This document shows, in pieces, positions 6,336 to 15,891 of a stretch of DNA of 64,000 bases. Each line of letters opens with the position of its first letter. The first letter of the stretch is position 1. Where the stretch lies: positions 841-64,840 of the forward strand of contig CAZBFO010000005.1 in the NCBI GenBank assembly GCA_964491475.1. The letters are read 5' to 3'. The notes under the pieces are model-generated. The model did not search any database. It saw only the letters and a list, made by a program, of their open reading frames with translations, and had not been told where the DNA came from. Made by a program: the position numbers and the translations under genes. Origin of the DNA: an uncultured Gammaproteobacteria bacterium. GTDB lineage: Bacteria > Patescibacteriota > Patescibacteriia > SG8-24.

Positions 6336-9300
6336 TTATTCTGTCTTCTTCTCTTCAGGATGCGCCTGATCGGCATCGGGCAACAAGCGACCATTCTGGG
6401 CTCCAGAAGCCTCGTCCTTGAGTTCCTTTAGCAGTTCGGCGGCGGATTCATGCTTTATGACGGGAGTAGGCGCAGCTTTGTCCACGCTTGTTTGGACATT
6501 TGAGTCTTTCTTCGGTATCTCTCCCGGCTTCGGCATAACCTTAATGCCGTCATCGCCAGTCGTGGGCGGAGACGCTTCCGGTTTGCTGCCAGTGGTCATT
6601 TTCTTCAGGCGCGCGAGCATCTTTGCCTCATAGGACTCGCCTTCTGCCACGGGCTCTGCCTTTGGCATTTCTGGTTGCGCGGCTGCAGGTGCTACGGGTG
6701 ACGGGACTGCGGCTGCAGGCGCCGCCGGAGCCGGTGCGACCGGCGGTGCGATAGGAGTCTCGATGGACTTTACCGGTGTACGGAGAGCCAACCCAGCCGG
6801 CTGGGGCGGCATGGCCGGCAGTGACGTCGAAATGCGCTCACCGCCGTCCGTTGGCGGCCCTGAAGGCGTGCCCGGATCCGCCGAAGGCACGGCTGGCGGC
6901 TTTACGACCGCTCCCGCCGCTGGCGTAGCTCCCCCTTCCGTTCGCGGCAGGTGCACGTCCACGGCGACCACATGCATGCCCTTCTCCTTGGTGTCGATCA
7001 GGTTGACCGGACCCTTCTGCTGCTTCTGGTAGCCGGGCTTCTCGAAAGTCACGTAGTAGGTGTTCTGACCCACCAAGAACGCGTAGCGCCCGCGGACGTC
7101 GGTTACCTGCGTCTCGAGCAGCTTGTTGAAGCGGGTGTCGAAGATGCGCGCCACCACGTTGGAGAGCGGCTTCTTGGACTTGTCGTCGTAAACGATGCCC
7201 CAGTTCTTCGGCTTGCGCGTAATGGACAGGCGGCGGAACAGCAGGTACATGATGACGTTTGCCCCGAACATCGCGAACATGGTCGGCGTCGGCGAAAGCG
7301 CCGTCGCCACGGCCATGGCGAGAATGGTGATGACGCCGAGGCTCTTCTGCAGGCGGCGGGCAATGCCCTCGAGCAGGATCCTGCGCGGCGTCTTTTCGAC
7401 GCTTACCGGATCGAGCGGGACGTTGGCCGTGATCGTGGTCTCCTTGGTGACCTCGATGATTTCGCCGTGATACAGGTCGATGAACTTGGCGTCTTCCTTC
7501 ATTCCGCGCAGCACGTCTGACGGGAAAACGTACGAGGTCTTCACGGCAATCATCTTGTACGTGCCGGCCTGCACGATGAAGAAGTAGCGGCCGTCCTTGT
7601 CGGTAACGGCGGAGCGCACCACGCGGCCCGTCTTGGCATCAAGCAAGCGGACGATTGCCAGGTCGATGGGCAACTTGGAGAGCGAGTTGTAGACCACGCC
7701 CCACTGCTTGCGGCGCCGGCGGGCAATGAGCATGAACGGATGTGCCAGCAAGCTCCACAGGTACAGCAGGTACGGCACCACCGTCGCGGTGGCCACGCCG
7801 GCCGCAGCGACGTTCGCCACGGTCGCAACCGTCGCCGCGGGCGCGGCGATGTCCTGCGCGTTCTGCTTCACGTAGGCGTTGCCGGCGAAATCCGCTACGG
7901 CGTCGGCGGCGATCTTCGCGGCAAAACTGACGTTGGCGATGACGTCGTCTTTCGGCGGCAGCTTGATCAGCTTCACGTCGTTGCGCAGCACGTTCTCCGT
8001 GGCAAGCGGGAACGGAAGCGTGGTCTTCGTCGCGTATTCGTCGCGTTCGACGATCAGCTTGTACGAACCGATGGGCAGGATGTAGCCAAAGCGGCCGTCG
8101 GCGTCGGTAATCTGGGGGTTCTGCTGGCTCGAAGTGCCGCCGTCCCACAAGCCGAAGTTGCCGCCGCCGTTGTCGATCATCAGCGTCACGCGAGCGCCTG
8201 CCAGCGGAGCGTTTCCGTTATCGTCAAGCACGCGCGGTCGCGGCACGGTGCGCACGATGAAGTGCACGCTGTCGGAACCGCCGTCCTTGTACTTGACGAT
8301 GACGTCCATCGGATAGTCGGCGCTGGTCGAGGGCGTGGTCACCGTGGCTTCATAGCTGGCCGTCTGCCGCATCACGTAGCCGGCGTTATTGAAGTTGATG
8401 AAGGCGCTGTCGATCTCGTGCTTGATCGAAGGATCGGGAATCATCACGGTGAACACCGACGAGCTGTAGTAATTCAGCACGCCGCCCTGCATGCGCAGCT
8501 GGATCTTTCCCGAGGTGGCGAAGTAGCGCAGAGCGTCCGGAGTCAGCTTGATGTCCGAGCTGACCGTCGGCTTCGGCACCTCGACCGGAGGCTCCTGCGG
8601 AACGATCGGGCAGTCCGCCGGGCAGTTCAGCGAGTTCTCCTCGCCGGCGCAGATGCCGTTGCCGCATATCTCGGTGCTGGGCGGCGCGTTCGACGGGACG
8701 CACTTGCCGGCCGAGCACTTGAAGCCGCCGCCGCAGGCATGCGTCTCGGTCTGGTGCTGGTTGGCTTCGTCGCAGTAGCGCTCGAGCAGGGTGGCTTCAT
8801 CGGCGCACGAGTCGGTCTCGGTCTGACCGCCGTTGAAGCTGACCGTGCCCTGCAGGTCGTAATTCTTGCCGCCGTCGCTGTCGCTGCACGACGGTCCGAC
8901 CGGCGGAGGAAGGTTCGCCAAGGGAGTGGCGTCGTCGAACGCGCCTGACGCGTAGTTCAGCACGTTATCGTAGGCGAAGGCGCCGTAGTAGTACTTGGTG
9001 CCGTTGGTGACGCCGTTGTCCATTTTGTTGTCGCCGATGCCGTCGAATACGACGGTGCCGTCGTTCGGACCGCTCGGGTTGCTTCCCGTCTTGCGCACCA
9101 CGCGCGTGCCGGCCCAATCGGCATCGCTCGGATTGTGCCAGGTCAGCTGCACTTGCGCGTCGCCGGCGGTCGCCGTCAGCAGCGTCACCGGACCCGGCGG
9201 CACGTGGTCTCCGCCCGCGGGAGTCGCCTGCGCCTGCGCAGGCGTCGAATAATTCGGCACCGCGTCGTAGGCGTAGAGCGTGTAGAAGTAGAGCGTGCCG

Positions 9301-12014
9301 TTCGCGACGGCCGTATCAAGGTAGCTCTGTTGCGGACCCGAATACACCAGCGTGCCGTCGGTGGGGCCGGTGGAGTAATCGCCGATCTTGCGCAACACCT
9401 TCACGCCCTGGAAGTCGATGGCGCTCGGATTGTTCCAGTTGAGCTGGATCTGCGAATCCCCCGGCGTCGCGGTCAGGTTGGTCACCGGTCCCGGCGGCGT
9501 GGTGTCGGCAGTTCCGGCCGGCGTGGCGTTGGCGATCGCGCCCGAGGAATAGTTGGGCACGTCGTCGTAGGCGAACACCGCGTAGTAATAGGTGACGCCG
9601 TTGGTGACGGTGAGGTCGATCTTCGAAGTGCCGCTGCCGGTGTACACCGGCGTGCCGTCGTTGGAATCGGTCGGATACGAAGTCGTCTTGCGGAGCATTT
9701 TCACGCCCACGAAGTCGGCATCGGTCGGATTTGTCCAGTTCAGGGTCACCTTCGAATCGCCCGGGGTTGCGGTCAGCCCGGAAACGTTCGCCGGCGGCGT
9801 AGTGTCCGCAAGCGTCGTGAAGGTGAAGTCGTTCGAGATGACCGTCTGGCTGCCGGTGTCCGTAGAAGAGACGCGGAAATGGTAGAGCTTTCCTTTGGTC
9901 AGGCCCGTCAGCACGATGGCATGACTGGTCGTCAAAGTGGCGCTGCTGGCAGTCGAGCCGTAGCTTGCCTGCAGGCCGTACTCCACGGTGGAGTCCGACA
10001 TGGTGCCCAGCGTGTCCCAAGTGATCGTCGCGCCCGTCTGCGTGATGGCCGTCGACTGGACGTTGGTGATGTCTGGCGGCGTGCCGTTGCAGATGTTGGC
10101 ATCGTGCAGGAAGTTGATGGTCTGCGGGTTGCCGGCACCGTCATGCGAATCGGACCACAGCAGCTGGTCCTTGCGGAGCACGCCGTGATAGTAGATTTCC
10201 GCGCGAACCACATGGTGCCACGACGAGCTTTCCGGCTGGGCGCTGAACAGCACTGCCGAGCAGTCGCGGTGATCGACATCAACGACCACGTCGTTGTAGT
10301 CGAAGTCGATGCCCTTGTCTTCGAAGCCGTAGCGGTCGATGCCCGGCGACAAGTGCGTCACCTGCACGTAATTGCCGCCGACCTTTCGCACGGTGCCGTC
10401 CGGATTGATGATGTACGGATAGAATTCGGTGGCGGTGCAGTCCACGTTGCAGGTGCCGGGGGCCGCCGCCAGCGTCTTGAAGGTCAGGTCCGCGGTGTTG
10501 GCGGAGTTGGAAGAGAGGTCCTTCGAGGTCAGCTTGTAATGATAGGTCGTGTCGGGGTTCAGGCCGGTCAGGTCGAAGCAGCGCGTCAGCGCATAGTTGG
10601 TGTCCGTCTTGGACTGGCCGTAGGCGTTGGTGATGCCGTAATCGATCAGCCCGTCGGCGGCCTCGTTCGTGTCCCAGCAGACGTGCGCCGACTCGCTGGT
10701 GATCGAGGTCACCTGAATGTTGCTGATGATCGGCGGAGTGGTGTCGGCCACGCAGGAAAGCTGCGTCACGAAGGTGGCGTCCGAGGTGAACGACTCGTTG
10801 GAAGCGGCATCGCCCGAACGCACGCGGTAATGGTACTGCGTGTTGGGCGTCAGGCCGGAAAGGATGACCGTGTGCGAAACCACCAGCGTGGCACTGCCGC
10901 TGGTCGAGGCGTACGGCGGACCGACGGGCAGGCCGTAGTCGACGTAGCTTGTCGAGTTTTCGTCGGTGGTCCAGGTGACGGTAGCCGAGCTGCACGCGGC
11001 GCTCACGTTCACGCTCGAGATGCTCGGCGGCGTGGTATCGGCCATCGAGAACGTCTGATCGCCGGAGCAGGCCTGGTTGTTCGAAGGATCCTTTGAGCAG
11101 ACCTGGTAATGATAGGTCGCGCCCTCGGTCAGCGAGCTAAGCGTCAAACAGTGGACCGCGATGTACGCGCCGTTCGATTGCTGGCTGCCGTAAGTATTCG
11201 TCAGTCCGTAATTGACCGTCGAGTCGGCGACCTCGTTGGTGTTCCAGCACACGTCGATGCTGTTGGTGGTCGCGTTCTGCGTGTGGATGTTGGTGATGAT
11301 CGGAGGGGTCACGTCCGCGCCGCCACCGCCGCCGCCGCCCGGCGGGGGTGCGCCGACCACCGTCGCCGTGATGGTCACGTCGCCGCTGTCGATGATGGAA
11401 ACGGCCATGCTGCAGATGTCGCCCGCCACCTGGCAGTCGCCCGCGCCGTCCAGCACGCCGATCGCGTAAGAACCCGCAGCCGACGGGTTCGTAAGCGTGC
11501 CGTTGGGTGCCGCACCGCCGACGGTGAACGTCACGAAAGCGCCCGCAGCGCTGCTCGTGAACGATCCGCCGCAGGGAATCACGCGGAAAACCAGACCTGC
11601 CGTATCCACCGCCACGCCTACGTTGTTGACACCGTCGGGGCAGACGACCGTAGAAACGGAAGGCCCCTGGTTGACGCCGGCGATGGTGCGGGCGGTACCG
11701 TCATTAAAGGAGAAGTCGGCTGCGGCCCACACGCCGCCCGTGGTGAACGCGCTGGTCTCCGGCAGGTCGATGGCGATCTTTTCGCCGGCCGCAAAGGTGT
11801 TGCCTCCGGACAGGTTAAAGGAGATGACGTGGTTGGCGGCAGCGCTGACGGCCTGGTTGGAGAGCTTATCCTGGCGGTTGGTGAGCTGCGCCGCGTAAAT
11901 GCGAACCACGACCGCGGTCGCCGCCACGATCAAAAACAAAGCCAAGCCCATCCACGCGTTCATGCGTCGAAGGCCCTTTGCGGCTTTGACTTTCTTTTCC
12001 CTACTCTCCTGCAT
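6336..12014 (-). CDS. Giant (1892 aa) multi-domain membrane/surface protein. It has an N-terminal signal-anchor, at least 7 Fn3-like domains (YHYQV/YHYRV/YHYKL/YHFRV motifs; three tandem TTPPGPV..LNW..GVKVLRK..YYY..AYD repeats) and a Cys-rich module. CarboxypepD_reg-like domains alternate with TM helices, and there is a Pro/Ala-rich C-terminal tail
   Basis: Single 1892-aa ORF. Domains were recognised by eye from the translation. TM segments lie at the N-terminus and at about residues 1395-1420 and 1545-1580, each followed by RRRRKQWGVVY.. or RKPKNWGIVYD.. and a DGRYxF..G.Y beta-sandwich motif. Confidence 0.75.
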   Translation of the reverse strand: MQESREKKVKAAKGLRRMNAWMGLALFLIVAATAVVVRIYAAQLTNRQDKLSNQAVSAAANHVISFNLSGGNTFAAGEKIAIDLPETSAFTTGGVWAAADFSFNDGTARTIAGVNQGPSVSTVVCPDGVNNVGVAVDTAGLVFRVIPCGGSFTSSAAGAFVTFTVGGAAPNGTLTNPSAAGSYAIGVLDGAGDCQVAGDICSMAVSIIDSGDVTITATVVGAPPPGGGGGGGADVTPPIITNIHTQNATTNSIDVCWNTNEVADSTVNYGLTNTYGSQQSNGAYIAVHCLTLSSLTEGATYHYQVCSKDPSNNQACSGDQTFSMADTTPPSISSVNVSAACSSATVTWTTDENSTSYVDYGLPVGPPYASTSGSATLVVSHTVILSGLTPNTQYHYRVRSGDAASNESFTSDATFVTQLSCVADTTPPIISNIQVTSITSESAHVCWDTNEAADGLIDYGITNAYGQSKTDTNYALTRCFDLTGLNPDTTYHYKLTSKDLSSNSANTADLTFKTLAAAPGTCNVDCTATEFYPYIINPDGTVRKVGGNYVQVTHLSPGIDRYGFEDKGIDFDYNDVVVDVDHRDCSAVLFSAQPESSSWHHVVRAEIYYHGVLRKDQLLWSDSHDGAGNPQTINFLHDANICNGTPPDITNVQSTAITQTGATITWDTLGTMSDSTVEYGLQASYGSTASSATLTTSHAIVLTGLTKGKLYHFRVSSTDTGSQTVISNDFTFTTLADTTPPANVSGLTATPGDSKVTLNWTNPTDADFVGVKMLRKTTSYPTDSNDGTPVYTGSGTSKIDLTVTNGVTYYYAVFAYDDVPNYSSGAIANATPAGTADTTPPGPVTNLTATPGDSQIQLNWNNPSAIDFQGVKVLRKIGDYSTGPTDGTLVYSGPQQSYLDTAVANGTLYFYTLYAYDAVPNYSTPAQAQATPAGGDHVPPGPVTLLTATAGDAQVQLTWHNPSDADWAGTRVVRKTGSNPSGPNDGTVVFDGIGDNKMDNGVTNGTKYYYGAFAYDNVLNYASGAFDDATPLANLPPPVGPSCSDSDGGKNYDLQGTVSFNGGQTETDSCADEATLLERYCDEANQHQTETHACGGGFKCSAGKCVPSNAPPSTEICGNGICAGEENSLNCPADCPIVPQEPPVEVPKPTVSSDIKLTPDALRYFATSGKIQLRMQGGVLNYYSSSVFTVMIPDPSIKHEIDSAFINFNNAGYVMRQTASYEATVTTPSTSADYPMDVIVKYKDGGSDSVHFIVRTVPRPRVLDDNGNAPLAGARVTLMIDNGGGNFGLWDGGTSSQQNPQITDADGRFGYILPIGSYKLIVERDEYATKTTLPFPLATENVLRNDVKLIKLPPKDDVIANVSFAAKIAADAVADFAGNAYVKQNAQDIAAPAATVATVANVAAAGVATATVVPYLLYLWSLLAHPFMLIARRRRKQWGVVYNSLSKLPIDLAIVRLLDAKTGRVVRSAVTDKDGRYFFIVQAGTYKMIAVKTSYVFPSDVLRGMKEDAKFIDLYHGEIIEVTKETTITANVPLDPVSVEKTPRRILLEGIARRLQKSLGVITILAMAVATALSPTPTMFAMFGANVIMYLLFRRLSITRKPKNWGIVYDDKSKKPLSNVVARIFDTRFNKLLETQVTDVRGRYAFLVGQNTYYVTFEKPGYQKQQKGPVNLIDTKEKGMHVVAVDVHLPRTEGGATPAAGAVVKPPAVPSADPGTPSGPPTDGGERISTSLPAMPPQPAGLALRTPVKSIETPIAPPVAPAPAAPAAAVPSPVAPAAAQPEMPKAEPVAEGESYEAKMLARLKKMTTGSKPEASPPTTGDDGIKVMPKPGEIPKKDSNVQTSVDKAAPTPVIKHESAAELLKELKDEASGAQNGRLLPDADQAHPEEKKTE

Positions 12015-12126: not shown

Positions 12127-13131
12127 TTACTGCTTCTTAGTCTTCCTCTCGTAGCGGCGAATGACCGCCTTGTTGTACCCCTTCATGCCGACCGTGAAGA
12201 ACAGGATGACGATGAGCAGCGCGAGGCCGACCAGCGTCATCATTCTCCAAGGCCAAACGGTGAAGGTGCGCACTTCCGAGAGCGTCTGGTTGTTGGAGCC
12301 GTAGTTCACGAACAGCGTGGCCTCGTACCTGCCGAAGCCGAAGTTGTTCCACTCGTTGGCCAGCTGGGTAAAGAACCCTCCCTCCTTCGGCTTGCCCGCG
12401 CCCCATCCGAAGGTGAACTTGCGGATGCTGTGCGGCAGTACGGAGCCGAACTGGTCGTTCACCTTGATGGAGGCCACCTGGCGGCCGTACCAGTTCTTGA
12501 TGAAGACGTTACCGGCGGGGCGAAGGTTGGTGTTGCCGTCGTTTTCGAACCGCATGAACATGTCGATCGGCAGCGTGTTGTACCAGAGCTTCTTGTCCTT
12601 GAAGGTGAAGTCGAGGATGCGGCCGGTCTCGTTCAGGTCGCCGCTGACGTTGACGAAGATCAGCGAGCCGAGCTTGGTTTCCACGCCGACCTCACCACCC
12701 TTAGGATCCGCCTTGCCGCTGGCCATCAGCACCGCGCCGTAGTGAGCGCCAGGCTGGGCGTCCTTGGGAATGTTGATGGCAATCGGGATGTTGGCGCGTT
12801 CCTTGGGAGCGAGCGTGTAGGTCTTGCTGGGATCGGTGATCGTGATCCACCTGGCAAGGTCGGTGCCGTCGCGCTTTTCATTCGGCGGATAGAACACCGG
12901 AATGCCGTTTTCCTCACCCTCGATGCTAGTGAAGTTCATCACCTGCACGTGGAACGTGTTCGGAGAGGTGTCCTCGTTGTACACCTTGACCACGTCCAGC
13001 ACGGTGTCGCCGGGATTCAGACGGTAGTCGACGTACGGCGGCGAGATGGTCAGCGCTTGGGCCGAAAGTGCGGGCATGAGCGTTACCAATACCGTGGCTG
13101 CTGTGGCGACTTTTGCGAGAAACTTCTTCAT
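12127..13131 (-). CDS. Secreted protein with C-terminal TM anchor and basic tail; DUF916/DUF3324 (CscA)-like cell-surface protein
   Basis: Probable start is MKKFLAKVATAATVLVTLMPALSAQA (signal peptide). The architecture matches DUF916 proteins of WxL/Csc clusters: about 300-aa ectodomain, motif INIPKDAQPGAHYGAVLMAS, C-terminal TM (WRMMTLVGLALLIVILFFTV) and a KR-rich tail. The family assignment is from memory, not from a search. Confidence 0.55.
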   Translation of the reverse strand: MKKFLAKVATAATVLVTLMPALSAQALTISPPYVDYRLNPGDTVLDVVKVYNEDTSPNTFHVQVMNFTSIEGEENGIPVFYPPNEKRDGTDLARWITITDPSKTYTLAPKERANIPIAINIPKDAQPGAHYGAVLMASGKADPKGGEVGVETKLGSLIFVNVSGDLNETGRILDFTFKDKKLWYNTLPIDMFMRFENDGNTNLRPAGNVFIKNWYGRQVASIKVNDQFGSVLPHSIRKFTFGWGAGKPKEGGFFTQLANEWNNFGFGRYEATLFVNYGSNNQTLSEVRTFTVWPWRMMTLVGLALLIVILFFTVGMKGYNKAVIRRYERKTKKQ

Positions 13132-13234
13132 AACGTCGTTACAAGAATAAAATCTTCCTTTTCGACCGTGGCAGCTAATCTCCACGGGAGAGTCCCCCTC
13201 CCCGGAGGGAGAGAGGGAGCTCGTCCCGCAAAGA

Positions 13235-14275
13235 CTAGAAGGTGCCCGTGGCCACGAAGGTCAGGACGTCCGTGTAGTCGTTGTGTGCAGCGGTCAACGA
13301 ATTGGCGTTGGCGTTGACGATGATCTCGCCGACACCCGTGCCGACCGGACCGCCGGCCGTGTTCAGGATGTTCGTCGGAGTCAAGGTCGAGAGCGCCTTA
13401 ACGTCGTTCGTGGTACCGCCCGGAGCGCAGGTGCCCGCGTTATACGGGGAAGCTGCCTGGAACGTACCAGTGGTCGCCGACGGCGGTGTGACCGTGTTCA
13501 CGCACAGGCCGTAGTTGGCGTTGGCGCTAGCCATCGCAGCTGCGGCGTTCGGGATCGTGTCCAACGGAGCCGAGGTCGACTTGAGCGCGGCATTCAACGA
13601 GAGAACTGTCACGACTGCGCCGCTTGAGGCGTTTGTCGAGAGGTTCGCCCAGATGCTGTCGATTGCCGCGTTGTCCGACGACTTCACCGTGCCCGGAGTG
13701 AGCACTCCGAACGGTACGTCATACACGGGACCCTCGGACGCGTTATTCAGGTTGGCGTTGAGGTCGAACGTGATTGACGGGTCGACCGTCGCGGTGACAG
13801 TCACCTGGTCGCTGTCATCAAGAGCGACAGCGAACGTGCCGGTGGTGGCAGCGGTACCGGTGATGGTGACCGTGCGGCTACCTGCAGTCGTGTCGTCGTT
13901 GGTGGCTGCCGCTTCGGTGATCGTAGCGACGTCGCCAGCCGCACAACCAGTGGTCGTGACTTTGAGGACGTTGCTAGCCGAGGTGTTGTCGGCAATCGTG
14001 CCGCCCGAAGGAGTGCAAGTACCCGTGGCAGTGGCAGGGAAAGTCCAGCCAGCGCCGACGTTCTGGTACGTGAAGTCCAAGTTGCCATTAACGAAGGACG
14101 CGGGAAGCGTCAGCGTGACGGTGTGGTCTGACGTCGCGCCGAGAGCCTGGCGGCTCAAGGTGTCCGACATCAGCGTTGCGTTATCGGCCATTGCCGGGGA
14201 AACGGCGGCGAACATGGCGAGCATGGTCGCGGCGGCCGTAACCTTGGCGCCGAATTTCATGAATTTGTTCTGCAT
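13235..14275 (-). CDS. Secreted Thr/Ala/Gly-rich surface protein with conserved C-terminal motif DYTDVLTFVATGTF (WxL-like, F replacing W); paralogue of 15037..15891
   Basis: N-terminal signal peptide (MKFGAKVTAAATMLAMFAAVSPAMA), low-complexity T/A/G-rich body, C-terminus shared with the neighbouring paralogue. Confidence 0.55.
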   Translation of the reverse strand: MQNKFMKFGAKVTAAATMLAMFAAVSPAMADNATLMSDTLSRQALGATSDHTVTLTLPASFVNGNLDFTYQNVGAGWTFPATATGTCTPSGGTIADNTSASNVLKVTTTGCAAGDVATITEAAATNDDTTAGSRTVTITGTAATTGTFAVALDDSDQVTVTATVDPSITFDLNANLNNASEGPVYDVPFGVLTPGTVKSSDNAAIDSIWANLSTNASSGAVVTVLSLNAALKSTSAPLDTIPNAAAAMASANANYGLCVNTVTPPSATTGTFQAASPYNAGTCAPGGTTNDVKALSTLTPTNILNTAGGPVGTGVGEIIVNANANSLTAAHNDYTDVLTFVATGTF

Positions 14276-14637: not shown

Positions 14638-14660
14638 TAATCCACACCAACTGTGGATAA
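14638..14660. promoter_or_regulatory. Inverted pair of DnaA-box 9-mers (TAATCCACA ccaac TGTGGATAA)
   Basis: Lies in the 761-bp ORF-less spacer between the two WxL-like paralogues and is preceded by a cgcgggg-cattcc-ccccgcg hairpin. Confidence 0.45.
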
Positions 14661-15036
14661 CCTGTGTCTGACCTGTGAAGAAGTGCGGAGGCATGCCTTT
14701 AAGAGCAACGCCGCGTCGCTGCTATACACGTCGCAAACCTATCGAGTTGTGAGAGCGCGGCCGACGAGTCCGATGACCATTGCGGTCGTCGTGAACTCGA
14801 CCAGAAGCCGGAACAACTTGATTTTTGTTTTTTTGCACATACGAGCCTTCTGCCGGTTAAGGCTAAGTTCTCCGTGCCTAAAAACTGCGACCTTTTCGCG
14901 CCCCTTTTGTGGAGGGGCGGGGCCGATCCCAGAGCCATGCTTCTCTTGGATCGACCTCGCACCTTCACTTGTCATTTGTCTACGCTTTTCTGGACAACCG
15001 CTTGTTGCTCGATGCCGCTCATTCGCGGCCCCGTCG

Positions 15037-15891
15037 CTAGTACGTCGCAGTCCCAATGAACGTCAACGTGTCTGTGTAGTCGCTCCCTGCAGCCGTACCG
15101 TTGCTGATCGCTGCTTTGACGAACACTTCTGCCTGTCCGCCAAGCAACTTGCCGGTGGAAGAAAGCACCGTATTCGCCGTCGTCGATACGAGACCAACGT
15201 TGTGGGCACTTGTCGTACAGGTGCTGGCGTAGGGCGAAATCGGATTAAACGTGGTCGGGCTGGCTCCGTCCTGGGTTGCATTGGCCACGCAAATGCCGAA
15301 GCCGGCCGCACCAGGTGTAAGCAGGGCTGTCGCCGAAGAAATCAAATCTGCCGTCGAGACCCGCTTCAGGCCATTGTTGTTATCGACAACGGTCACGATG
15401 GTCCCGCCCGCGCCGTTGCTTTCGGCATTGATGAACACGGAGTTGATGGTGCTGTTATCACTAGTGTTTACCGATCCTGTCGTCAGCGTAGCGAGAGCCA
15501 CTCCTGCGCCGGCCGTACCGGGCGCGGAAGTCCCCTCCTTCACGGACATCGTGATGTACGGCACGTTTGAACCGAAACACTGAAAACCGGAACAGGTCTT
15601 GAAGTTCGCGCTGCTCAAATTTTCACCGGTGGCCAAATCGCCGAGCGTATCGTTGGCTTTGTAGCTCGCCGAGCTGCTGTTGCCGCCACCTTGGCTCAAC
15701 ACATCTTGCTGCACCTTGTAGCTGGCTGAACTCATCGTTTCTGCGAACGCAAACTCACTCGTAGGAAGTACGAGTGCGATAACCACAAAAACCGCAGTTA
15801 GCGTTTGGCGAGTCTTAAGCCCAAGCATGGATGGCTCAAAGATAACTTGCCTTATGACGGTATTGTAACATTTTTTTGTCCCTTTGTCCAA
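15037..15891 (-). CDS. Secreted Thr/Ala/Ser-rich surface protein with conserved C-terminal motif DYTDTLTFIGTATY (WxL-like); paralogue of 13235..14275
   Basis: Signal peptide/TM near the N-terminus (TLTAVFVVIALVLPTSEFAFA). The true start is probably internal, at about 15828 (MLGLKT..). The C-terminal 14 aa are conserved with the paralogue. Confidence 0.55.
   Translation of the reverse strand: MDKGTKKCYNTVIRQVIFEPSMLGLKTRQTLTAVFVVIALVLPTSEFAFAETMSSASYKVQQDVLSQGGGNSSSASYKANDTLGDLATGENLSSANFKTCSGFQCFGSNVPYITMSVKEGTSAPGTAGAGVALATLTTGSVNTSDNSTINSVFINAESNGAGGTIVTVVDNNNGLKRVSTADLISSATALLTPGAAGFGICVANATQDGASPTTFNPISPYASTCTTSAHNVGLVSTTANTVLSSTGKLLGGQAEVFVKAAISNGTAAGSDYTDTLTFIGTATY

What the first reader, a model, noticed from the sequence alone, without database searches (positions are those of the whole stretch)
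6336..12014. Unusual topology: CarboxypepD_reg-like beta-sandwich domains interleaved with TM helices after a long Fn3 ectodomain
After about 1400 aa of Fn3 and Cys-rich ectodomain, the protein crosses the membrane at least three times. Each crossing is followed by a positively charged R/K cluster, W-G-(V/I)-V-Y-(N/D) and a CarboxypepD_reg-like domain (DGRYFF..GTYKM, RGRYAF..QNTYYV). It ends in a Pro/Ala-rich tail. This suggests cytoplasmic beta-sandwich domains tethered to a giant surface adhesin, possibly a signalling or anchoring function. The (GGC)n tract at 11321-11344 encodes poly-Gly and is a potential in-frame slippage site.
Basis: inference. Interest (0 to 1): 0.55.

Follow-up and report, generated by a model that had tools for sequence, protein, structure and literature searches.

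The report
Membrane anchor with internal beta-sandwich domains
The tail end of this giant surface protein of an ultra-small (CPR/Patescibacteria) bacterium is a widespread but undescribed membrane-anchor module whose two beta-sandwich domains most likely sit inside the cell, which may show how these bacteria fix surface fibres to their single membrane.

Summary
Window 6336-12014 (minus strand) is one 1892-aa ORF. It has a signal peptide, an Ig-like N-terminal domain, a Gly hinge, about seven Fn3-type domains and Cys-rich parts. A 450-aa C-terminal module follows, then a 200-aa Pro/Ala-rich tail.

The module order is: extracellular CarboxypepD_reg domain, hydrophobic region A (1389-1431), RRRRK, WGVVYN beta-sandwich, helical hairpin B (1558-1593), basic collar, WGIVYD beta-sandwich.

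It is not a one-off. About 976 protein clusters match at E<=1e-30, always at the C-terminus of proteins of 330-4040 aa. It occurs in 91 of 301 sampled Patescibacteria genomes. It is fused to Fn3 stalks, DUF4215 repeats and type IV prepilin-like heads. It also occurs as a stand-alone ~300-aa protein without an export signal.

Three lines place both distal beta-sandwiches in the cytoplasm (about 70% confidence):
- family-wide charge statistics: 13.5 K/R on their side of the membrane against 1.8 on the other;
- the stand-alone forms;
- their much higher conservation.

I read the module as a rivet-like anchor and probable cytoplasmic coupler for surface fibres in a Pam/WxL-like cluster. No paper or curated model found describes it. 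The GGC tract encodes a family-wide variable Gly/Pro hinge; slippage could not be tested.

The parts
6336..12014 (-). Whole ORF, 1892 aa: giant membrane-anchored surface stalk protein
11889..12014 (-). Residues 1-42. Basic n-region (7 K/R) plus hydrophobic core: a Sec signal peptide or signal anchor. A likely cleavage site is near IYA/AQ.
   Evidence: family N-termini
11349..11888 (-). Residues 43-222. Conserved N-terminal Ig-like beta-sandwich domain that starts with the motif LTNRQDKLSNQ..ANHVISF. The motif is shared with the upstream 346-aa gene.
   Evidence: AF2 pLDDT 89.6, pTM 0.82. Only weak pilin/adhesin fold matches. The profile hits this ORF at 9e-12 and the neighbour at 3e-4.
11319..11339 (-). 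Residues 226-232. Gly7 hinge encoded by GGC x4, GGT, GGC x2. It is part of a variable Gly/Pro linker found across the family.
8955..11309 (-). Residues 236-1020. Array of about seven Fn3-type domains (Pur_ac_phosph_N-like and fn3), with an inserted Cys-containing domain at about 520-645.
8610..8957 (-). Residues about 1020-1135. Cys-rich segment.
   Evidence: read from the translation
7959..8243 (-). Residues 1258-1352. CarboxypepD_reg domain 1, extracellular, the first element of the conserved C-terminal module.
   Evidence: Least conserved of the three domains (4/93 columns >=90%).
7851..7943 (-). Residues 1358-1388. Amphipathic linker helix and acidic juxtamembrane motif (NP.VE in the family).
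7776..7850 (-). Residues 1389-1413. A1, an Ala/Val-rich uncharged segment with Pro1392 conserved in 147 of 152 sequences. Proposed stop-transfer TM helix (out to in).
   Evidence: pLDDT is low. A1 is absent from the stand-alone forms.
7722..7775 (-). Residues 1414-1431. A2, a membrane-embedded or interfacial helix with conserved polar positions (col 1420 R/Q/Y, col 1425 Q/H, invariant Pro1426).
7704..7721 (-). Residues 1432-1437. Polybasic collar RRRRKQ.
   Evidence: K/R frequency 0.46-1.0 per column in the family.
7404..7703 (-). Residues 1438-1537. CarboxypepD_reg domain 2 (WGVVYN ... DLYHGE ... NVPLDP), predicted cytoplasmic. The most conserved part.
7344..7394 (-). Residues 1541-1557. Basic juxtamembrane helix (KTPRRILLEGIARRLQK) leading into B1.
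7236..7343 (-). Residues 1558-1593. Helical hairpin B1-(S-P-T-P)-B2 with both ends on the basic side. Polar position 1586 is conserved (Q/H/N in 150 of 152).
7203..7235 (-). Residues 1594-1604. Second basic collar RRLSITRKPKN.
6942..7202 (-). Residues 1605-1691. CarboxypepD_reg domain 3 (WGIVYD ... VTDVRGRYAF), predicted cytoplasmic.
6339..6941 (-). Residues 1692-1892. Disordered Pro/Ala/Lys/Glu-rich tail with short conserved motifs: ESYEAKMLARLKK, IKVMP and DQAHPEE.
12127..13185 (-). Upstream neighbour, 352 aa: signal peptide, WxLIP_PGBD domain, C-terminal TM and basic tail. It is chaperone-like, and its pairing with a module protein recurs in a Magasanikbacteria locus.
13235..14275 (-). Upstream neighbour, 346 aa: secreted protein that shares the N-terminal motif of the big ORF.

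Best explanation
The ORF encodes a Sec-exported, Fn3-rich stalk protein of a Patescibacteria (Uhrbacteria-like) cell. It lies in a four-gene surface-fibre cluster: a secreted subunit, a membrane-tethered WxLIP/DUF916-like chaperone-like protein, this stalk, and a second giant protein.

Its last ~650 residues are a phylum-wide C-terminal anchor module followed by a tail. Proposed topology:
- the ectodomain and CarboxypepD_reg domain 1 are outside;
- A1 crosses the membrane once;
- A2 packs in or at the inner leaflet;
- a polybasic collar clamps CarboxypepD_reg domain 2 against the cytoplasmic face;
- the B1/B2 hairpin dips out and back;
- a second collar holds domain 3 inside;
- a disordered tail with short linear motifs hangs in the cytoplasm.

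Proposed mechanism (inferred):
- Two folded beta-sandwiches riveted to the inner face, plus a 3-4-helix bundle, give a pull-out-resistant anchor. This suits cells that lack an outer membrane.
- The highly conserved internal domains and tail motifs dock a conserved cytoplasmic partner. This would couple surface fibres to internal machinery.

Status of each step:
- Shown: the domains, helices, repeats, conservation, distribution and fusion partners.
- Inferred: the inside location (about 0.7), the anchor role (about 0.6) and partner docking (about 0.3).
For: Architecture:
- Pfam domains.
- AF2 gives mean pLDDT 88.7, with helices for A2, B1 and B2 and three beta-sandwiches.
- Foldseek matches the single domains to the transthyretin-like domain of carboxypeptidase D (TMt 0.83) and to CnaB/SdrD-B domains. 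No solved structure matches the whole module.

Family:
- 4040 representatives match at E<=1e-3 and 976 at E<=1e-30.
- The module is always C-terminal, with a median of 18 aa after it.
- It is present in 91/301 genomes and 73/248 genera of the phylum, at 1-5 copies.

Topology:
- Mean K+R per 15-residue flank is 1.5 before A1 (net -1.5), 5.05 after A2, 4.3 before B1, 0.27 in the B loop and 4.1 after B2.
- The N-terminus is a signal peptide and the ectodomain is Fn3/Cys-rich, so it is outside.
- Stand-alone ~300-aa homologues lack A1, an ectodomain and a signal peptide. P0187 has an in-frame stop just upstream and a hydrophilic N-terminus. The G068 and L037 N-termini are non-TM, with max KD 0.5-1.05.
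- About 20 such genes occur in family f26, in 17/28 genera.

Conservation: columns >=90% identical number 4/93 in domain 1, 27/100 in domain 2 and 13/85 in domain 3.

Tails:
- The WEL..L / YEERML motif occurs only in tails: 10 of 82 tails, and 0 hits in 192,301 non-tail residues.
- The C-terminal W[FH]RD-x end tracks the prepilin-type head, 8/17 against 1/221.

Anchor context:
- The module is fused to a prepilin-type head in the own-genome paralog and in 12 or more others.
- The adjacent chaperone-like gene is conserved.
- The Pam pilus paper proposes membrane-anchored chaperones and an FnIII anchor protein in CPR bacteria (PMC13278184).
Against: - No dedicated topology predictor or experiment was available.
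- Region A is 43 uncharged residues and could form a hairpin like region B. That would put all three domains outside.
- AF2 is unsure about A1 (pLDDT<50), and no coordinates were available to check which side each domain faces.
- Several stand-alone N-termini are borderline hydrophobic (KD up to 2.08). They could act as signal anchors.
- Pro-rich C-terminal tails in Gram-positive bacteria are often wall-spanning, that is, extracellular.
- No cytoplasmic partner was identified.
- The gene neighbourhood of the module is not constant.
Confidence: 0.65

Rival explanations
1. All three CarboxypepD_reg domains are extracellular. Regions A and B are both helical hairpins that dip into the membrane from outside, or cross twice. 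The basic collars bind anionic lipid head groups or wall polymers on the outer face, and the Pro-rich tail threads the cell wall.
For: - Region A splits into two halves (A1, A2) around a short polar turn, much like B1-SPT-B2.
- CarboxypepD_reg, CnaB and SdrD-B domains are typically extracellular.
- Pro-rich wall-spanning tails are known in Gram-positive surface proteins (general knowledge).
Against: - It would put about 13.5 K/R per protein on the outside and about 0.3 inside. That is a gross violation of the positive-inside rule, and it is conserved in 152 sequences.
- Stand-alone homologues without any hydrophobic N-terminal segment could not export domain 2 (P0187, G068, L037).
- The distal domains are far more conserved than domain 1.
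Confidence: 0.2
2. The module is primarily part of the cell-wall elongation machinery, a RodZ-like link between MreB and PBP2. The fusion to adhesins and pilin-like heads is secondary. The internal beta-sandwiches bind MreB or another elongasome component.
For: In family f26 the stand-alone form sits directly after mreB-mreC-(mreD-like)-PBP2 and before a response regulator. This holds in 11-12 of 12 loci from about 10 genera.
Against: - Among 80 module-bearing genomes, only the f26 stand-alone genes lie within 6 kb of mreB.
- In this genome PBP2 is followed by greA, and neither module gene is near mreB.
- No binding evidence exists.
Confidence: 0.1
3. The hydrophobic segments are buried strands or linkers of a soluble secreted protein, so there is no membrane anchor.
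For: None found.
Against: - The segments are 16-25 residues long and uncharged in 152 homologues. They are flanked by basic clusters and are predicted helical with high confidence for A2, B1 and B2.
- Nothing else in the 1300-aa ectodomain reaches their hydrophobicity.
Confidence: 0.02

Closest known systems
PamR, the FnIII-containing terminator/anchor of the Pam pilus of Ca. Mycosynbacter amalyticus (Troman et al., bioRxiv 10.64898/2026.03.03.709456; PMC13278184)
   Same: Both are Sec-exported, Fn3-containing, C-terminally membrane-anchored CPR proteins. Both are encoded next to a membrane-tethered chaperone-like protein and small secreted subunits. An N-terminal strand or domain is shared with the subunit gene.
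   Different: PamR is described with a single C-terminal TM helix. That paper does not mention a multi-helix anchor or carboxypeptidase/transthyretin-like domains. Here the stalk is far longer, and the chaperone-like neighbour scores as WxLIP_PGBD. Homology to Pam pilins was not tested.
Csc/WxL cell-surface complex clusters of lactobacilli and enterococci (CscA = DUF916/WxLIP with C-terminal TM)
   Same: The upstream neighbour matches PF06030 WxLIP_PGBD above its cut-off and has a C-terminal TM plus a basic tail.
   Different: No WxL domain and no LPXTG protein were detected. The big ORF has no counterpart in Csc clusters.
CarboxypepD_reg / transthyretin-like / CnaB-type beta-sandwich domains (PF13620; carboxypeptidase D TTL domain, SdrD B repeats, SusC N-terminal extension)
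   Same: Same fold and HMM family for all three domains.
   Different: The known examples are extracellular, periplasmic or luminal spacer and binding domains. Here two copies are each preceded by a TM helix plus a polybasic collar, and they are predicted to be cytoplasmic.
Mycoplasma cytadhesins (P1, P110/P140 'Nap') and eukaryotic integrins: large ectodomain, TM, cytoplasmic tail coupling to internal structures (comparison from general knowledge)
   Same: In both, a large ectodomain in a cell without an outer membrane is held by C-terminal TM segments. A Pro-rich or motif-bearing internal tail could link to internal machinery.
   Different: There is no sequence or fold relationship. Those proteins use single TM helices and lack folded internal beta-sandwiches. 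Coupling here is hypothetical.
Tripartite C-terminal sorting signals (LPXTG, PEP-CTERM, PGF-CTERM): motif, TM helix, Arg/Lys cluster
   Same: Region A resembles one: a conserved Pro motif (VVAPA), a hydrophobic stretch, then RRKRKK.
   Different: The protein continues for 460 residues past the basic cluster, with conserved folded domains. So this is not a terminal, cleaved sorting signal.

Membership tests
CarboxypepD_reg (PF13620) | HMM score above the gathering cut-off (32.3 bits) | tested here: met
   70.8 bits in 3 stretches on the whole protein. 80.6 bits on residues 1240-1700.
CarboxypepD_reg (PF13620) | Seven-stranded transthyretin-like beta-sandwich fold | tested here: met
   AF2 models three beta-sandwiches at pLDDT >90. 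Foldseek gives TMt 0.83 to the carboxypeptidase D TTL domain 5aq0.
Fibronectin type III (PF00041 / PF16656) | HMM score above the cut-off | tested here: met
   fn3 65.1 bits (cut-off 25). Pur_ac_phosph_N 87.8 bits (cut-off 30), 4 stretches.
Polytopic membrane protein with cytoplasmic domains (N-out, 3 crossings) | Hydrophobic helices of TM length | tested here: met
   A1 is 21-25 aa, A2 18, B1 16 and B2 16, all uncharged in 152 homologues. AF2 models them as helices.
Polytopic membrane protein with cytoplasmic domains (N-out, 3 crossings) | Positive-inside charge distribution consistent with the stated topology | tested here: met
   K+R per flank: 5.05, 4.3 and 4.1 on the domain 2/3 side, against 1.5 and 0.27 on the other side.
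Polytopic membrane protein with cytoplasmic domains (N-out, 3 crossings) | Experimental or dedicated-predictor topology | not testable with these tools
Pam pilus system (anchor PamR type) | Fn3-containing protein with a C-terminal membrane anchor in an operon with a membrane-anchored chaperone | tested here: met
   The 352-aa neighbour has a signal peptide, WxLIP_PGBD and a C-terminal TM. The pair recurs in L015. Described.
Pam pilus system (anchor PamR type) | Homology of the adjacent subunits to PamA/PamB pilins, and donor-strand exchange through an N-terminal strand | tested here: inconclusive
   The N-terminal motif is shared with the 346-aa neighbour (profile E 3e-4), but BLASTP is not significant. 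The fold is Ig-like with only weak pilin matches. Pam sequences were not compared.
Csc/WxL cluster | WxL-domain proteins and an LPXTG partner | tested here: not met
   No Pfam hit in the 346-aa and 305-aa neighbours at E<=1e-3. Only the WxLIP-like component is present.
Type IV pilin / pseudopilin | Prepilin N-terminal cleavage/methylation motif (PF07963) | tested here: not met
   Absent from this ORF. Present in the own-genome paralog P0003 (23.6 bits, cut-off 21.2) and in 12 or more other module proteins.
C-terminal sorting signal (sortase/exosortase type) | Motif-TM-basic cluster at the extreme C-terminus | tested here: not met
   460 residues with conserved domains follow the basic cluster.

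The most novel reading that the evidence does not exclude
The module would be a bacterial 'integrin-like' transmembrane coupler used throughout the Patescibacteria. Its two internal beta-sandwiches and tail peptides would dock cytoplasmic machinery: MreB or the elongasome for the stand-alone form, and type IV pilus components for the prepilin-headed form, whose tail ends in W-F-R-D-x. Different surface fibres (Pam/WxL-like stalks, pilin-like heads, cohesin anchors) would then be mechanically and perhaps informationally linked to the cell interior through one shared device.
Probability: 0.15. Interest if true: 0.85.

Novelty: new variant of a known kind. Interest (0 to 1): 0.6.

Why it matters
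CPR/Patescibacteria are a large share of bacterial diversity. All cultivated members live attached to host cells (PMC11623550 abstract), and how they hold their surface fibres in a single membrane is open. The first structural paper on a CPR-specific pilus proposes simple single-helix anchors (PMC13278184).

This module occurs in about 30% of sampled genomes, in roughly a thousand protein clusters. It is shared by stalks, pilin-like heads and a stand-alone protein in an elongasome operon.

It offers a concrete, testable candidate for the anchoring and coupling device. It would also be an unusual case of transthyretin-like beta-sandwiches working on the cytoplasmic face of a membrane. Finally, it gives annotators a way to recognise these proteins, which are currently labelled 'carboxypeptidase regulatory-like domain-containing' or 'hypothetical'.

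Tried and rejected
- NCBIfam gave no hit.
- The search for related loci with the full alignment failed because no stretch was conserved enough. I used the genome search instead.
- Foldseek of the whole module found only single-domain matches.
- BLASTP of the N-terminal domain against the 346-aa neighbour was not significant (E 0.22). A profile did link them.
- Foldseek of the N-terminal domain gave no match at E<=1e-3, so 'pilin' stays unproven.
- A general mreB-adjacency hypothesis failed. Only the f26 stand-alone genes are near mreB.
- Searching the own genome for the tail motifs gave only one extra IKVMP, which is about what chance predicts (my rough estimate ~0.7), and nothing else.
- Many ~300-aa 'short' database members turned out to be truncated gene calls on short contigs, so I did not use them as evidence.
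- Literature searches for CarboxypepD_reg with transmembrane, cytoplasmic or CPR terms found nothing relevant.
Full report
**1. What is there**

Window 6336-12014 (minus strand) is a single 1892-aa ORF. In order from the N-terminus:
- A basic n-region plus hydrophobic core (residues 1-42), the strongest hydrophobic segment of the protein.
- A ~180-aa domain that AlphaFold2 models confidently as an Ig-like beta-sandwich (pLDDT 89.6, pTM 0.82). Its solved-structure matches are weak and pilin/adhesin-like.
- A PPPGGGGGGGA hinge.
- About seven Fn3-type domains (Pur_ac_phosph_N 87.8 bits, fn3 65.1 bits), interrupted by Cys-containing parts.
- The region of interest, then a Pro/Ala-rich tail.

**2. 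The C-terminal module**

Pfam finds three CarboxypepD_reg stretches (70.8 bits, cut-off 32.3; 80.6 bits on residues 1240-1700). The layout is:
- Domain 1 (1258-1352).
- An amphipathic linker.
- Region A (1389-1431). It has an Ala/Val-rich half, A1, and a second half, A2 (VPYLLYLWSLLAHPFMLIA).
- RRRRKQ, then WGVVYN and domain 2 (1438-1537).
- A basic helix (KTPRRILLEGIARRLQK).
- Region B (1558-1593), two 16-residue halves split by S-P-T-P.
- RRLSITRKPKN, then WGIVYD and domain 3 (1605-1691).
- A 200-aa tail with P 18% and A 16%.

The two helix + collar + domain units are an internal repeat (34% identity, E 5e-14). AlphaFold2 with a 112-sequence alignment gives mean pLDDT 88.7. It models three beta-sandwiches and helices for A2, B1 and B2. 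A1 is uncertain, with pLDDT<50.

Foldseek confirms transthyretin-like/CnaB-type domains (carboxypeptidase D TTL domain, TMt 0.83). It finds no solved structure with the overall arrangement.

The hydrophobic segments are not buried strands, and the domain assignment is supported.

Two corrections apply:
- There are three CarboxypepD_reg domains, the first of them extracellular.
- The basic-cluster/WG motif follows only the last helix of each hydrophobic region.

**3. It is a conserved, widespread module**

- An exhaustive HMMER search with residues 1240-1700 found 4040 cluster representatives at E<=1e-3 and 976 at E<=1e-30. The best 150 align over almost the whole query.
- In all of these the module is C-terminal, with a median of 18 residues after it. 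Host proteins range from 330 to 4040 aa.
- Source names are only 'carboxypeptidase-like regulatory domain-containing', 'hypothetical', 'prepilin-type N-terminal cleavage/methylation domain-containing' or 'GspG'. All named sources are Patescibacteria: Uhr-, Magasanik-, Buchanan- and Parcubacteria.
- In an even sample of the phylum, 91 of 301 genomes (73 of 248 genera) carry it, at 1-5 copies each.
- This genome has a second copy on another contig. It is a 668-aa protein with a type IV prepilin N-terminus (GFTLPEVLV; PF07963 23.6 bits), the same module at 40% identity, and a Pro/Ala/Lys tail ending AWHRDL.
- Other fusion partners include DUF4215 Cys-rich repeats and fn3. Earlier scan notes mention a cohesin-bearing anchor.

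**4. Topology**

The ectodomain must be outside, given the signal peptide and the Fn3/Cys-rich domains.

Charge statistics. Across 152 representatives the 15-residue flanks carry these mean K+R counts:
- 1.5 before A1 (net charge -1.5);
- 5.05 after A2;
- 4.3 before B1;
- 0.27 in the B1-B2 loop;
- 4.1 after B2.

Region B therefore has both ends on one, basic side, so it is a hairpin. Domains 2 and 3 share that side. The positive-inside rule puts that side in the cytoplasm, provided region A crosses an odd number of times. The alternative, with A as a hairpin and everything outside, would put about 13.5 K/R outside and about 0.3 inside.

Stand-alone homologues give independent support:
- P0187 (305 aa) has an in-frame stop just upstream and a hydrophilic 24-residue N-terminus directly before domain 2.
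- In family f26, 24 of 41 genomes (17 of 28 genera) carry the module. About 20 of the copies lie in 285-320-aa reading frames.
- Their 28-52-residue N-termini lack A1. They have basic residues on both sides of an A2-like amphipathic segment, and some are clearly not TM (max KD 0.5-1.05).

Domains that work without an export signal in these proteins are cytoplasmic. A1 is then present exactly when there is an ectodomain to connect. This fits A1 as the stop-transfer helix and A2 as an inner-leaflet or interfacial helix. A2 and B2 each carry a conserved mid-helix polar position (Q/H at 1425, Q/H/N at 1586) at a similar depth from the basic end. That suggests they pack in parallel.

Conservation points the same way. 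Domains 2 and 3 have 27/100 and 13/85 columns at >=90% identity, against 4/93 for domain 1. This is what one expects when the inside contacts a conserved partner and the outside evolves freely.

I put the cytoplasmic placement at about 0.7. It is not proven, because no dedicated predictor, model coordinates or experiment was available.

**5. Tails**

The tails are disordered and variable, but they carry short motifs confined to them:
- WE[LVM]..L / YE[EA][RK]M[LM] (here ESYEAKMLARLKK) occurs in 10 of 82 long tails. It has 0 hits in 192,301 non-tail residues.
- IKVMP and D..AHP[ED] recur.
- A C-terminal W[FH]RD-x end is found in 8 of 17 prepilin-headed members, against 1 of 221 others.

A terminal peptide that co-varies with the type of external head suggests specific docking.

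**6. Context**

- Upstream on the same strand lies a 352-aa protein with a signal peptide, a WxLIP_PGBD domain (32 bits, cut-off 27.3), a C-terminal TM and a basic tail.
- Its homologue (28% identity, E 1e-24) sits directly upstream of a module protein in a Magasanikbacteria contig.
- Further upstream is a 346-aa secreted protein. It shares the N-terminal motif of the big ORF. A profile built from ten other family members hits only these two among 8745 own-genome ORFs, at 9e-12 and 3e-4.
- Downstream lies a second giant protein of at least 1998 aa.
- The same locus order (holA, RmuC, small genes, module protein, giant) recurs in a relative.

This matches the logic of the recently described CPR Pam pilus: membrane-anchored chaperones and an FnIII anchor protein, PamR (PMC13278184). 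However, that paper describes single TM helices and does not mention such a module. Earlier notes of this scan reached the Pam/WxL comparison for related loci. I treated them as leads. I verified only the chaperone-like neighbour, the shared N-terminal motif and the content of the paper.

**7. Mechanism proposed**

- The module is a rivet-type anchor. It has one crossing helix, a membrane-embedded helix bundle and two folded domains. Polybasic collars clamp those domains to the inner face, so they cannot be pulled through the bilayer.
- The conserved internal domains and tail motifs probably dock a cytoplasmic partner.
- A lead for that partner comes from family f26. There the stand-alone gene sits between PBP2 (after mreB-mreC-mreD-like) and a response regulator, in 11-12 of 12 loci.
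- This adjacency does not extend to other families or to this genome. The MreB/elongasome link is therefore a minority rival and part of the 'novel case'.

**8. The Gly tract**

The DNA at 11319-11339 is GGC x4, GGT, GGC x2. Homologues have a variable Gly/Pro/Ser linker at this point, with Gly runs of 1-9. It is a flexible hinge between the head domain and the Fn3 stalk. It tolerates length change, but nothing shows it acts as a switch.

**9. Verdict**

The domain family is known. The architecture is not described in Pfam, NCBIfam or the searchable literature. That architecture is an interleaved helix/collar/beta-sandwich anchor with probable cytoplasmic transthyretin-like domains, shared by several kinds of CPR surface proteins. 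I class it as a new variant of a known kind (a membrane anchor of surface fibres), of moderate to high interest.

Noticed in passing
L024:8740-9660 (G190:C4:99739-100656), and L030-L041: A stand-alone ~300-aa version of the module has no ectodomain and no signal peptide. In 11-12 of 12 loci of family f26 it sits between PBP2 (after mreB-mreC-mreD-like) and a response-regulator gene. That is the position where rodA usually lies.
   Followed up: partly
G000:C2:276528-278570 (L002:931-2937): The own-genome paralog is a 668-aa protein with a type IV prepilin N-terminus, the same anchor module and a tail ending AWHRDL. It is flanked by fpg and an endonuclease III-like gene. The fpg neighbour is also seen in another species (L013). 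A pilin-like head tethered at both ends is odd in itself.
   Followed up: partly
window 13235-14275 (-): The 346-aa secreted neighbour shares the N-terminal motif (D.LS.QA....H.V.L.L) with the 1892-aa ORF. It could be a donor-strand or subunit-type element of a Pam-like fibre.
   Followed up: partly
window 12127-13185 (-) and L015:9175-9999: A WxLIP_PGBD-like protein with a C-terminal TM is conserved directly upstream of module proteins in Uhrbacteria-like and Magasanikbacteria loci (28% identity, E 1e-24).
   Followed up: partly
G000:C1:259829-262066 (-): A protein whose motor-like part I recognised by eye as TraG/VirD4-like (not tested with any HMM) also ends in a long Pro/Ala-rich tail containing IKVMP, the motif seen in the module tails. 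One extra hit is about what chance predicts. Part of this ORF is masked (run of X).
   Followed up: no
P0017, tail after the module: One family member has a 286-aa tail with two repeats of C.EQGGC..WVEK....W.LPEN. It is the only tail that looks like a folded, Cys-containing element.
   Followed up: no
window 14653-15570 (+): This 305-aa ORF has no signal peptide and an Arg-rich, low-complexity look. It is probably not a gene.
   Followed up: no
L015:1-5575: A Magasanikbacteria contig carries a run of seven genes hitting T4SS_pilin (PF18895) a few kb from its module gene.
   Followed up: no
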